Positions 13,669 through 15,247 of a stretch of DNA of 64,000 nucleotides are shown here, piece after piece. Within the stretch, counting starts at the first letter, position 1. The number at the start of each line of letters is the position of its first letter. A model generated the notes under the pieces. The model was not told the DNA's origin. It saw nothing but the letters and a program-made list of their open reading frames with translations, and ran no database searches. Both the position numbers and the translations under genes were made by a program. Source of the stretch: Promethearchaeota archaeon (GTDB lineage: Archaea; Asgardarchaeota; Lokiarchaeia; Sigyniarchaeales; SOKP01); NCBI GenBank assembly GCA_030603385.1, contig JAUVXW010000010.1:34737-98736 (forward strand), given 5' to 3'.

Positions 13669-14232
13669 TTAATCTAAATCATTATCTTCCAGAGGTTCAC
13701 TTTTTTTCAAATTAAGAAGATAAGAAATTGAGCTAATTGCCCCAAAGATTCCTTGTATGATTAAGGCTAAACAAATCAAAAATACAGCCAATAAATCATT
13801 GTATATAAACAAGAAAATAATTATAAAAATCCCTGCTAATGAAAATTTTATGATATATGAAATTTCGCTGAATAGGATTTTCCATACAGTAGATTTCTTT
13901 ACTCGAGACTCTAATTCTTTATGATATTTTGCTTCTCCAGCTTCTTTTATATACCAACTACCTTCTATATTATTGGCAAAAAGGAATACACTCCACCATA
14001 AAATAAAGAAGCTGAGATAGAAGTCTAATGCCCCTAAAACTACTAGGGGTATCTGCATTAAAACCATTCCTTTCCATCCAATACGTTTAGCCAATTTATT
14101 TGTCTCTAATTTTAATTCTTTCGACACATACCGCGTACTAAGTAAATCAAGTAATCGCCCTATAATTGTAATTAAAATATTTATTAAATACTGGTACCAC
14201 TGAACTTCTTGGAGGATTAATTGAAATATCAT
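13669..14232 (-). CDS. Integral membrane protein
   Basis: Four to five hydrophobic helices; LDLLST...LETN motif. Confidence 0.65.
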   Translation of the reverse strand: MIFQLILQEVQWYQYLINILITIIGRLLDLLSTRYVSKELKLETNKLAKRIGWKGMVLMQIPLVVLGALDFYLSFFILWWSVFLFANNIEGSWYIKEAGEAKYHKELESRVKKSTVWKILFSEISYIIKFSLAGIFIIIFLFIYNDLLAVFLICLALIIQGIFGAISSISYLLNLKKSEPLEDNDLD

Positions 14233-14430
14233 ATTCTAGAGCTTATCTTAGTTTACTCCTTTTAAATTTTGCCTTTTTCTATGAAAAAGTTTAATTACTA
14301 GTCTTTATTATTTCTCCTTACTCATTACCTAATAAGAAGGTATTTACGTTGTAAATAACCGTACTTATTAAATGGTAAACCCGTGGTTTTAAAACCACAT
14401 AAATGTACAACATTCAGTAAAGCGCCGGAA

Positions 14431-14582
14431 GTTAAACTATTAAGCGTTGCAGGATAGTACTGCAGTAAATAGTCTGTGGGAAACCTCAAACTGTAAGTTC
14501 GCTTACGGTCATGGTTTATAAGGATAATACCCGGTCCCATCTGAAAATCCAGCTTGAATCAAGGTGGATCGGGAACCCGGAA
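14431..14582 (+). rRNA. rrf: 5S rRNA, circularly permuted and intron-containing (exons in mature order: 14502-14545, 14576-14582, 14431-14497)
   Basis: 3'-half hallmarks (GUUAA...AGCGUU...AGUACUG...UGGGAAACC) lie upstream of 5'-half hallmarks (ACGGUCAU...ACCCGGUCCCAUC...GAACCCGGAA). Helix I ACUGUAAG/CUUACGGU is closed by UUCG; helix IV CUGCAG/CUGUGG and loop E AGUA/GAA are intact. Confidence 0.88.
14546..14575 (+). other. 30-nt BHB/BHL-type intron in loop C of the 5S rRNA
   Basis: Central helix UCUG/CGGG, 3-nt bulges AAA and AAC, intron hairpin AUCCA-G-CUUG/CAAG-G-UGGAU; excision restores UCCCAUCUGAAC. Confidence 0.75.
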
Positions 14583-14704
14583 ACGCTTATTTATGTGGTT
14601 AAACCTAATTTACTTCCCTTAAAGATATTAGATTTTGTTTAAAAATAATTTTTTTATGTGATCAATTATAAGTATATCATAATTAACAGTGGTAAATTGG
14701 AAAA

Positions 14705-15247
14705 ATGCCAAAAAAATATATAGTTGTTTTTAAAAGTATTGGACGAAGATGGTTCTTAATCCTTGTAATAATAATTATTATTATAGCAATTTTTAATCCA
14801 ATTGCAGCAATTTGGATGGCTGGAATAACATTAGTGATGTTTTTACTATCATATATTCCAAGACTCTTTTTCAAAAATAAACTCCACAGATTTATGAAAA
14901 AATTTTACAAGATCGAAGATGAATTGATTGCTAGAAAGCTTAAAAAACCTATTAAGAAAATCAGAGATGAGATGTTTGAATTATCTCAAAATCAAGAGAA
15001 AAAAAAAATGTTGATAGTATTTTTAAACAAACAGTACGTCTGTTACCATCAAGATACCATTAAAGCATTCAAGGAAGTTTACAATGAAGGTTATAGTGAA
15101 AAGGAAATGCTTGATAATTTGAAAAATTATAAAATTAATACTAGGCTAGAAATTAAAGCAATTCAAGACACTTTAATCAAACTTGATAGACTTAGTGAAC
15201 GGGAAATTTCCGTAAAAGAGCATAAAGAAAAACAAAGATTTGCATAA
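14705..15247 (+). CDS. Hypothetical membrane protein
   Basis: Two N-terminal TM helices, basic cytoplasmic domain. Confidence 0.65.
   Translation: MPKKYIVVFKSIGRRWFLILVIIIIIIAIFNPIAAIWMAGITLVMFLLSYIPRLFFKNKLHRFMKKFYKIEDELIARKLKKPIKKIRDEMFELSQNQEKKKMLIVFLNKQYVCYHQDTIKAFKEVYNEGYSEKEMLDNLKNYKINTRLEIKAIQDTLIKLDRLSEREISVKEHKEKQRFA

What the first reader, a model, noticed from the sequence alone, without database searches (positions are those of the whole stretch)
14535..14582. 30-nt BHB-type intron inside loop C of the 5S rRNA, giving a eukaryote-like 12-nt loop C
Seen: between UCCCAUCUGAA and CCCGGAA is an insert folding as AUCCA-G-CUUG-aau-CAAG-G-UGGAU, with a 4-bp central helix UCUG (14540-43)/CGGG (14570-73) and 3-nt bulges AAA and AAC. 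The outer side is an internal loop, so this is a relaxed BHL form. The standard cut rule removes 14546-14575 and leaves loop C = UCCCAUCUGAAC (12 nt). That is the eukaryotic length and close to plant UCCCAUCAGAAC, against 13 nt in typical prokaryotic 5S. It leaves a 7-nt micro-exon (14576-14582) whose CCGG is used by both splice motifs, so the two reactions probably need alternative pairings and a defined order (inference). Archaeal rRNA introns are known in 16S/23S; I am not aware of one in 5S.
Basis: partly seen in the sequence, partly recalled or inferred. Interest (0 to 1): 0.88.

Follow-up and report, generated by a model that had tools for sequence, protein, structure and literature searches.

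The report
Mini-intron in a permuted 5S gene
The only 5S ribosomal RNA gene of this Asgard (Promethearchaeota) archaeon is written back half first and also carries a 30-base hairpin insert in loop C that has every comparative hallmark of a tRNA-type (bulge-helix-bulge) intron, which would be the first intron I can find reported for any 5S rRNA, although RNA proof is still missing.

Summary
Positions 14546-14575 are a 30-nt hairpin in loop C of a 5S rRNA gene. A 4-bp helix (14540-43/14570-73) is flanked by two 3-nt bulges.

The gene is circularly permuted: 3' half, UUCG cap on helix I, then 5' half. Rfam finds no 5S in this genome. After re-ordering and removing the insert, the sequence matches sister-family 5S end to end (E 8e-13).

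The permuted gene occurs in 106 of 135 genomes of the family. An insert of 30 nt (31 in one gene) at this same site is in 27 loci of four genera. It is absent, with precise boundaries, from two of the three closest relatives. The inner stem co-varies (7 of 9 pairs) and the central helix always pairs. RNAalifold predicts the motif unaided.

Other ~30-nt inserts of the same build sit elsewhere in relatives' 5S genes. One with a TAA interrupts this genome's uvrB. Two EndA paralogues and RtcB are present.

Best reading (0.8): a relaxed BHB micro-intron that is spliced out. No RNA data could be obtained.

The '12-nt eukaryote-like loop' is simply the family norm. The two splice motifs need not compete for pairing.

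This scan had already noted the permuted 5S and mRNA micro-introns on other DNA.

The parts
14364..14373 (+). Conserved A/T-rich box (CTTATTAAAT), putative archaeal TATA element about 25 nt upstream of the leader stem
   Evidence: Conserved as CUUAUUAAAUGG / CUUAUAAAAUGG upstream of the locus in relatives. Its function is inferred.
14393..14404 (+). Leader strand of the 12-bp outer processing stem (AACCACAUAAAU); it pairs with 14589-14600
   Evidence: Read (present in MFE and centroid structures). The CCACAUAAAU/AUUUAUGUGG pair is conserved across the genus.
14420..14424 (+). Leader AAGCG, pairing with trailer CGCUU 14584-88 (helix outside the permutation splice motif)
14425..14431 (+). Leader half of the permutation BHB: CCGG (14425-28, pairs with 14577-80) and bulge AAG; predicted cut 14430|14431
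   Evidence: The join CCCGGAA|GUUAAAC reproduces the canonical 5S sequence. The same motif is present in all type A relatives.
14431..14545 (+). Main exon. In order: helix III/II 3' strands, loop E, helices IV/V, helix I 3' strand (14490-97), UUCG cap (14498-501), helix I 5' strand (14502-09), loop A, helix II, helix III 5' strand, and loop C up to GAA
   Evidence: Re-ordered and spliced, it aligns to nine normal 5S rRNAs of the sister family: nhmmer 37.1 bits, E 8e-13, profile positions 4-114 of 118.
14540..14546 (+). Exon strand of the intron's central helix, UCUG (14540-43), and 5' bulge AAA (14544-46); predicted cut 14545|14546
   Evidence: The helix pairs in 18 of 18 distinct sequences.
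14546..14575 (+). 30-nt BHB-type micro-intron. It comprises the inner stem AUCCA/UGGAU (14547-51/14565-69), the apical stem CUUG/CAAG (14553-56/14560-63), the central-helix strand CGGG (14570-73) and the first two bulge bases AA (14574-75)
   Evidence: Present or absent at the same site among relatives. Covariation and RNAalifold support the fold. The profile score rises from 25.1 to 37.1 bits when it is removed.
14576..14582 (+). 7-nt micro-exon CCCGGAA (last loop C base plus helix III 3' strand); CCGG 14577-80 also pairs with the leader CCGG
14581..14588 (+). Trailer bulge AAA (14581-83; predicted cut 14582|14583) and CGCUU (14584-88)
14589..14600 (+). Trailer strand of the outer processing stem (AUUUAUGUGGUU)
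14649..14655 (+). Run of seven T, a possible archaeal terminator of the pre-5S transcript
   Evidence: Read. Similar AAAUAAUUUUUUU runs lie downstream in close relatives. Its function is inferred.

Best explanation
Positions 14546-14575 are a 30-nt bulge-helix-bulge (relaxed HBh'/BHL) micro-intron in loop C of the organism's single, circularly permuted 5S rRNA gene.

Proposed mechanism:
1. The precursor is transcribed from about 14393 to the T-run near 14650.
2. Leader and trailer pair. This forms one splice motif: CCGG/CCGG with bulges AAG and AAA.
3. Loop C bases UCUG pair with CGGG at the 3' end of the insert. This forms a second motif with bulges AAA and AAC, closed by the insert's own hairpin.
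4. The splicing endonuclease (two EndA paralogues, probably an alpha-beta heterotetramer) cuts after the second base of each bulge: 14430|31, 14545|46, 14575|76 and 14582|83.
5. RtcB joins 14545 to 14576 and 14582 to 14431.

The product is 122 nt. It has a normal 5S fold, a 12-nt loop C, and helix I capped by UUCG, and it is most likely a closed circle.

Shown: the sequence anatomy, homology, covariation, presence/absence pattern and presence of the enzymes. Inferred: cleavage, ligation, their order, and circularity.
For: - 5S identity. No RF00001 match exists anywhere in the 94%-complete genome. The locus is single-copy. The re-ordered, insert-free sequence matches a profile of nine normal sister-family 5S rRNAs at E 8e-13. 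That is 12 bits better than with the insert kept.
- Same-site inserts. Inserts of 30 nt (31 in one gene) occur at this site in 27 loci of genera g1, g16, g21 and g22. Loop C lengths are only 12/13 or 42/43, with nothing in between.
- Close relatives differ. G080 and G019 (95.9% exon identity) lack the insert precisely. G092 (95.1%) has it. All four form one 99%-supported clade.
- Structure is conserved while sequence is not. The central helix pairs in 18/18 sequences. The inner stem has changes on both sides in 7/9 pairs. 92.8% of cells pair against 17-58% when slid, and 0/500 shuffles reach the observed score. RNAalifold predicts the BHB unaided.
- Same build elsewhere in 5S. Other ~30-nt inserts lie at other 5S sites in relatives. 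22 of 29 meet a strict BHB rule against 8% for random placements.
- Same build in a coding gene. In this genome, uvrB (977 bits, full length) has a 30-nt insert with a TAA, built as CCAG AA|A...CUGG AA|G. Its removal restores ...YYQPEAY.
- Shared cut context. All four predicted cuts in the 5S locus follow the same pattern: a 4-nt helix strand, then AA|N.
- Enzymes. Two EndA paralogues of 198 and 200 aa, each with N- and C-terminal domains, and one RtcB are encoded.
- No back-up gene. The insert-bearing genomes G001 and G012 also lack any other 5S match.
Against: - There is no RNA-level evidence. The one metagenome scan for the joined form found only normal-order 5S genes of other archaea on long DNA contigs.
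- The helix directly outside the 4-bp helix is missing, so the motif is relaxed. A 2026 preprint notes that relaxed classes arise often by chance.
- The single-sequence MFE folds do not form the 4-bp helix.
- The 7-nt micro-exon would be held by only 4-5 bp if both motifs were cut at once.
- A conserved, co-varying hairpin is also what a retained structural expansion would show.
Confidence: 0.8

Rival explanations
1. Retained expansion hairpin. The 30-nt stem-loop stays in the mature 5S rRNA (about 152 nt) as a lineage-specific extension of loop C, comparable to the enlarged rRNA expansion segments of Asgard archaea.
For: The hairpin is conserved and co-varies, which a structural element would also show. 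The outer helix of a strict BHB is missing. No RNA data exclude retention.
Against: - The length is fixed at 30 (31) nt, with no intermediates, across four genera with very different hairpin sequences.
- Two of the three closest relatives lack it precisely.
- The invariant part is the pairing of conserved loop C bases UCCG with the insert's 3' end, plus the two AA-N triplets. If retained, this pairing would tie up loop C.
- The same 30-nt build interrupts uvrB with a stop codon, where it cannot be retained.
- The same build also sits at other 5S sites.
Confidence: 0.12
2. Excised but not re-ligated. The hairpin is cut out like a bacterial 23S intervening sequence, leaving a fragmented 5S held together by base pairing.
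For: Fragmented rRNAs exist in other lineages (general knowledge). Nothing here demonstrates ligation.
Against: Without ligation the 7-nt piece 14576-82, which is the whole 3' strand of helix III, would be held by 4 bp only. The permuted order would then leave helix III open on both sides. RtcB is encoded. The uvrB insert needs exact ligation to restore the reading frame.
Confidence: 0.05
3. Neutral or damaging insertion in a decaying gene copy. The functional 5S would lie elsewhere, in unassembled DNA.
For: The genome is a 58-contig MAG, 94% complete with 7% contamination. rRNA genes are often missed in MAGs.
Against: - The exons are under strong conservation: 95-96% identity to the nearest relatives, and a complete 5S fold.
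- The insert's structure is maintained by compensatory changes.
- 106 of 135 family genomes have this permuted locus. In the 41-genome sample scored with RF00001, no member of the window's genus (25 genomes) reached the family's gathering score, and the matches above it were all in other families.
Confidence: 0.03

Closest known systems
BHB introns in archaeal 16S/23S rRNA genes (Thermoproteales, Desulfurococcales, Aigarchaeota; Jay and Inskeep 2015, PMC4496867)
   Same: An intron in a ribosomal RNA gene, bounded by a bulge-helix-bulge core at the intron-exon junctions. It is inserted in highly conserved rRNA sequence, patchily present among relatives, and removed by the tRNA splicing endonuclease.
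   Different: The host RNA here is 5S, for which I found no report. The lineage is Asgard, not Thermoproteota. The size is fixed at 30 nt. The motif is relaxed. The gene is also circularly permuted.
Non-canonical and multiple tRNA introns of Thermoproteales and Asgard archaea (Chan et al. 2011, PMC3218864; bioRxiv 10.64898/2026.10.13.758758)
   Same: Short introns at varied positions, recognised through hBHBh' or relaxed HBh' motifs. They occur in lineages with two EndA paralogues. Gains and losses are repeated. Several introns can sit in one small RNA, so the order of removal can matter.
   Different: The substrate is not a tRNA. The micro-exon is only 7 nt. One of the two 'introns' here is really the leader plus trailer of a permuted gene.
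Circularly permuted SRP RNA gene of Thermoproteus tenax (Plagens et al. 2015, PMC4731332) and permuted tRNA genes
   Same: The 3' part is encoded upstream of the 5' part. The termini are brought together in a BHB, cut by the splicing endonuclease and ligated. For the SRP RNA, the product is a functional circle.
   Different: Those genes are not reported to carry an additional internal intron. The RNA here is 5S rRNA. Within one family there are at least two junction positions in 5S (type A and type B), and a third in a neighbouring family.
cbf5 pre-mRNA BHB intron of Crenarchaeota (Yokobori et al. 2009, PMC2738675)
   Same: It shows that the tRNA splicing machinery removes BHB introns from RNAs other than tRNA and rRNA. 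The uvrB insert in this genome is the same kind of case.
   Different: It is a protein-coding host in a different lineage, and it is confirmed experimentally, whereas nothing here is.
Permuted mitochondrial 5S rRNA of brown algae (Valach et al. 2014, PMC4267664)
   Same: A 5S rRNA in which helix I is replaced by a closed hairpin and the ends lie elsewhere.
   Different: There the final RNA itself is permuted, with an open three-way junction. No splicing or ligation is involved and there is no intron.

Membership tests
Archaeal BHB (EndA-dependent) intron | 4-bp central helix flanked by two 3-nt bulges on opposite strands | tested here: met
   UCUG/CGGG pairs 4 of 4, including two G.U pairs. 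The bulges are AAA (14544-46) and AAC (14574-76). The helix is kept in 18/18 distinct homologues and is predicted by RNAalifold.
Archaeal BHB (EndA-dependent) intron | Inner flanking helix h' formed by intron sequence | tested here: met
   AUCCA/UGGAU plus CUUG/CAAG. 7 of 9 pairs show changes on both sides among relatives.
Archaeal BHB (EndA-dependent) intron | Outer flanking helix h formed by exon sequence directly adjoining the central helix (strict hBHBh') | tested here: not met
   Five unpaired bases, UCCCA, lie between helix III and the central helix. This is therefore the relaxed HBh'/BHL class, not the strict one.
Archaeal BHB (EndA-dependent) intron | Removal restores the conserved mature sequence found in intron-free orthologues | tested here: met
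   The product ...CAUCUGAACCCGGAA matches insert-free G019, G080, G018 and others. Removal also improves the 5S profile score by 12 bits.
Archaeal BHB (EndA-dependent) intron | Splicing endonuclease and RNA ligase encoded by the host | tested here: met
   Two EndA paralogues (198 and 200 aa, each matching PF02778 and PF01974) and one RtcB at 558 bits.
Archaeal BHB (EndA-dependent) intron | Spliced RNA and excised intron observed; cleavage by EndA demonstrated | not testable with these tools
The metagenome scan gave only DNA contigs of other organisms.
5S rRNA (Rfam RF00001) | Match to the covariance model on the genomic sequence | tested here: not met
   There is no match at the gathering threshold or at E <= 10 in the window or the genome. 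Permutation plus the insert explains this.
5S rRNA (Rfam RF00001) | Full set of 5S elements in canonical order after processing (helices I-V, loop A, loop C, loop E) | tested here: met
   The in-silico processed 118-nt sequence aligns end to end with nine sister-family 5S rRNAs at 53-62% identity. nhmmer gives E 8e-13. The MFE forms helices I and II and the helix IV hairpin; its helix III is in a shifted register.
Circularly permuted RNA gene matured through a BHB (Thermoproteus SRP RNA type) | 3' part upstream of 5' part, with leader and trailer pairing into a BHB-like motif whose cuts recreate the canonical junction | tested here: met
   The locus is conserved in 106/135 family genomes.
rRNA expansion segment (rival) | Length varies gradually among relatives and the segment is retained in mature rRNA | tested here: not met
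   Only two length classes occur: 12/13 and 42/43 nt. Retention itself could not be tested.

The most novel reading that the evidence does not exclude
In a whole family of Promethearchaeota, the 5S rRNA can only be made by the tRNA-splicing machinery. The permuted precursor is cut and ligated into a covalently closed circle. In many species one or two extra 30-nt micro-introns must also be removed from it.

These micro-introns would belong to one genome-wide, repeatedly inserting class that also interrupts protein-coding genes. The closest prokaryotic relatives of eukaryotes would then have an intron-rich, splicing-dependent gene expression system reaching into the ribosome itself.
Probability: 0.5. 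Interest if true: 0.9.

Novelty: new variant of a known kind. Interest (0 to 1): 0.78.

Why it matters
5S rRNA is regarded as the one archaeal rRNA whose maturation involves neither circularisation nor introns (PMC12918454). Only minor, unvalidated 5S circles have been reported (PMC3326292).

Here an essential ribosomal RNA would depend on up to four endonuclease cuts and two ligations. This matters in four ways.
- It explains why standard tools report no 5S gene in these Asgard genomes.
- It extends BHB introns to a new host RNA.
- Together with the uvrB case, it points to a class of uniform 30-nt micro-introns spreading through rRNA and mRNA genes in the archaeal lineage closest to eukaryotes.
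- It offers a compact natural substrate, two adjacent splice motifs and a 7-nt micro-exon, for studying the order and specificity of EndA and RtcB.

Tried and rejected
- **Rfam cmscan.** No 5S match on the window at the gathering threshold, on 14200-14900 at E <= 10, or with RF00001 on the whole genome. Weak matches to LOOT, snoRNA and SAM-II models are chance hits far below their cut-offs.
- **Metagenome scan.** I scanned metagenome contigs for the joined, spliced sequence in the hope of hitting transcript assemblies. It returned seven long DNA contigs of other archaea with ordinary 5S genes. This gives no RNA evidence.
- **Single-sequence MFE folds.** They give the insert hairpin and the leader/trailer stem but not the 4-bp central helix. 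I rely on comparative structure instead.
- **Alternative join.** Joining 14545 directly to the leader at 14425 would give an 11-nt loop. It is also unsupported by the insert-free type A relatives, in which the downstream CCCGGAA is clearly exon. Rejected.
- **Skipping the micro-exon.** Joining 14545 to 14431 would delete the 3' strand of helix III. Rejected.
- **Earlier 'group-I-like' reading.** An earlier first-stage note read the same stretch as a ~280-nt structured RNA with group-I-like topology (e1-5551485). The 5S homology explains those helices. Rejected.
- **5S gene tree.** It is poorly resolved, with 120 columns and 35 of 70 inner branches open. I use only the starred 4-row clade and treat the count of state changes as rough.
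- **BHB-rule script.** It evaluated only the 29 inserts that its alignment step detected. Seven near-motifs failed the strict rule, for example G092 with 3 of 4 central pairs.

Full report
**1. What is in the sequence**

- After UCCCAUCUGAA (ending at 14545) comes a 30-nt stretch, 14546-14575. It folds as AUCCA-G-CUUG-AAU-CAAG-G-UGGAU and is followed by CGGGAA.
- CCCGGAA (14576-82) comes next.
- UCUG (14540-43) can pair with CGGG (14570-73).
- This leaves AAA (14544-46) and AAC (14574-76) as 3-nt bulges on opposite strands.
- Because of the AA repeat, three neighbouring 30-nt deletions give the same product, UCCCAUCUGAAC followed by CCGGAA. The product does not depend on the exact cut rule.
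- No helix directly adjoins the outside of the 4-bp helix.

**2. The gene around it is a circularly permuted 5S rRNA gene**

Rfam finds no 5S in the window, in 14200-14900 at E <= 10, or anywhere in the 3.9-Mb, 94%-complete genome.

Reading the locus explains why. The gene runs in this order:
- 14431 onward is the 3' part of a 5S rRNA. It contains GUUAAAC, the helix II 3' strand, loop E AGUACUG...GGGAAA, helices IV and V, and the helix I 3' strand at 14490-97.
- A UUCG cap follows (14498-501).
- The 5' part then follows. It contains the helix I 5' strand at 14502-09, loop A, helix II, helix III CCCGG, and loop C.

Leader and trailer pair as follows:
- AACCACAUAAAU (14393-404) pairs with AUUUAUGUGGUU (14589-600).
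- AAGCG (14420-24) pairs with CGCUU (14584-88).
- CCGG (14425-28) pairs with CCGG (14577-80).
- The last helix is flanked by bulges AAG (14429-31) and AAA (14581-83).

Cutting after the second bulge base joins CCCGGAA to GUUAAAC, which is the canonical 5S sequence.

I built the re-ordered, insert-free 118-nt sequence from the window file. I then searched it with a profile of nine normal 5S rRNAs from the sister family.
- It matches profile positions 4-114 of 118 at 37.1 bits, E 8e-13, with 53-62% identity.
- With the insert kept, the score falls to 25.1 bits.
- In genomic order, only two partial matches appear, in swapped order.

The locus is single-copy in the genome. Record titles of syntenic relatives name the lineage Promethearchaeota, an Asgard group.

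**3. Comparative evidence on the insert**

*Distribution of the permuted locus.* It is found in 106 of 135 genomes of the family, in 10 of 13 genera. I collected 103 loci.

*Two permutation junctions.* Type A, as here, has 72 loci. Type B has 30 loci, with the junction inside loop C at GGUC|CCAUCCGAAC. Both give the same mature sequence.

*Loop C lengths.* Among type A genes, loop C is 12 nt in 34, 13 nt in 10, 42 nt in 25 and 43 nt in 3. There are no other lengths.

*Same-site inserts.* Twenty-seven loci in genera g1, g16, g21 and g22 carry an insert at exactly this site. It is 30 nt in all but one, where it is 31. One further gene (G101) has a 31-nt insert five bases upstream, with a perfect UCCC/GGGA helix.

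*Closest relatives.* By exon identity the three closest are G080 and G019 (95.9%, no insert) and G092 (95.1%, insert). With the window they form one clade with 99% support. The element has therefore been gained or lost precisely and recently.

*Structure.* In an alignment of 18 distinct sequences:
- The hairpin sequence differs widely, for example AUCCA/UGGAU, AACCA/UGGUU, AGUA/UACU and GGC/GUC.
- Pairing is nonetheless kept. 92.8% of cells pair, 7 of 9 inner-stem pairs have changes on both sides, and the central helix pairs in 18/18.
- 0 of 500 shuffles reach the observed pairing or covariation. Slid controls reach only 17-58% pairing.
- RNAalifold, given no hint, returns helix III, the 4-bp helix, two 3-nt gaps and the inner stem.

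**4. The insert belongs to a class**

Fifteen relatives carry other inserts of about 30 nt in the 3' part of 5S. Most are in loop D, others are in helix II or helix I, and three genes have two inserts.

I defined insert boundaries by alignment to an insert-free gene. On that basis, 22 of 29 inserts satisfy a strict rule within 4 nt: central helix 4/4 and inner helix of at least 3 bp. Only 8% of 2040 random placements do so.

Following a lead from an earlier first-stage note, I checked uvrB in this genome.
- It is a full-length match (977 bits) with one internal TAA.
- The stop lies in a 30-nt insert built as CCAG AA|A-hairpin-CUGG AA|G.
- Removing it restores ...YYDYYQPEAY....
- That insert cannot be retained if uvrB is functional.

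All four predicted cuts in the 5S locus have the same local form: a 4-nt helix strand followed by AA|N. This fits a single enzyme.

The genome encodes two EndA paralogues of 198 and 200 aa, each with both domains, and one RtcB. A 2026 preprint links two paralogues to the alpha-beta heterotetramer in Asgard genomes. [quoted passage not shown]

**5. Mechanism proposed**

1. The precursor is transcribed from a conserved A/T box near 14364 to the T-run near 14650.
2. The leader/trailer stem and the insert hairpin both form.
3. EndA cuts at 14430|31, 14545|46, 14575|76 and 14582|83.
4. RtcB joins 14545 to 14576 and 14582 to 14431.

The product is 122 nt with a normal 5S fold. Helix I is capped by a 4-nt loop that is kept at 4 nt across nearly all loci collected. 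I therefore think the product stays circular. All of this is inference.

The two motifs use different nucleotides and can coexist. The CCGG/CCGG helix lies immediately 3' of the intron's AAC bulge. Some order, or retention of the 7-nt micro-exon on the helix III 5' strand, is still plausible, because simultaneous cutting would free a 7-mer.

**6. Rivals**

- A retained expansion hairpin (0.12) fits the conserved stem. It does not fit the two-class length distribution, the precise absence in near relatives, the pairing that ties up conserved loop C bases, or the identical build of the uvrB insert.
- Excision without ligation (0.05) would leave helix III without a stable 3' strand.
- A decaying copy (0.03) is contradicted by exon conservation, compensatory changes and the absence of any other 5S.

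**7. Side claims**

The 12-nt loop C is real but is not produced by the intron.
- It is the family norm (about 89 of 102 genes).
- The sister family has 13 nt.
- The same 12-nt loop occurs in ordinary 5S genes on unrelated archaeal metagenome contigs.

'Eukaryote-like' is therefore not a meaningful inference. The resemblance to plant loop C reflects the general conservation of CCCAU..GAAC in 5S (my own knowledge, not tested here).

**8. Novelty**

Full-text searches found no archaeal 5S intron or permuted archaeal 5S gene. A 2026 paper states that archaeal 5S, unlike 16S and 23S, is not processed through circularisation. Minor, unvalidated 5S circles were seen in Sulfolobus.

Known relatives of the idea are:
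- rRNA BHB introns of Thermoproteales;
- the permuted SRP RNA of Thermoproteus;
- the cbf5 mRNA intron;
- permuted mitochondrial 5S without splicing.

This scan had already noted the permuted 5S and mRNA micro-introns on other DNA. I used those notes as leads only. None of the findings returned to me described a 5S intron, though reports overlapping mine are withheld.

**9. Limits**

There is no RNA evidence. The verdict rests on comparative genomics.

Noticed in passing
L020-L032, L035, L036 and others (same genus), e.g. L026:1430-1640: A second permutation junction (type B, 30 loci). The gene is opened inside loop C (GGUC|CCAUCCGAAC) instead of in helix III. The leader holds GCG-CUGG-AAC and the trailer CCGG-UCA-CGC. 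Both types give the same mature sequence and coexist within one genus.
   Followed up: partly
L031, L032, L033, L034, L035, L036, L057, L059, L097, L100, L101, L102, L112, L117, L128: Further inserts of about 30 nt lie at other 5S sites: mostly loop D, but also the helix II and helix I strands. Most show the same BHB build. L057, L059 and L102 carry two inserts plus the permutation.
   Followed up: partly
L055 (G101), downstream of the ACGGUCAUGG anchor: A 31-nt insert lies five bases upstream of the usual loop C site, with a UCCC/GGGA central helix. Its hairpin contains a 17-nt copy (GGAUAAUACCCGGUCCC) of the adjacent exon. This hints that such introns can arise by local duplication.
   Followed up: no
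L159:1783-1812 (G000 contig C4, uvrB): A 30-nt insert with an in-frame TAA splits the conserved YYDYYQPEAY hairpin motif of an otherwise intact uvrB. It is built as CCAG AA|A ... CUGG AA|G, the same build as the 5S insert.
   Followed up: yes
L010:1400-1620, minus strand (family f3, G026): This is also a permuted 5S gene, but with a third junction position, between the helix II 5' strand and loop B. Permuted 5S therefore extends beyond the window's family.
   Followed up: no
L164-L170 (metagenome contigs): Ordinary, non-permuted archaeal 5S genes on long contigs of 41-52% G+C have the identical 12-nt loop C UCCCAUCCGAAC and the flanks CCCGG...CCGGAAGUUAAAC.
   Followed up: no
window 14325-14540, minus strand: A 71-aa ATG ORF lies antisense to the 5S gene. 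It is most likely spurious, because the RNA gene explains the conservation of this stretch.
   Followed up: no
L003 (G032, sister family): Three tandem copies of a normal 5S gene, about 375 nt apart, lie in a closed 4.4-Mb genome of the sister family. This contrasts with the single permuted copy here.
   Followed up: no
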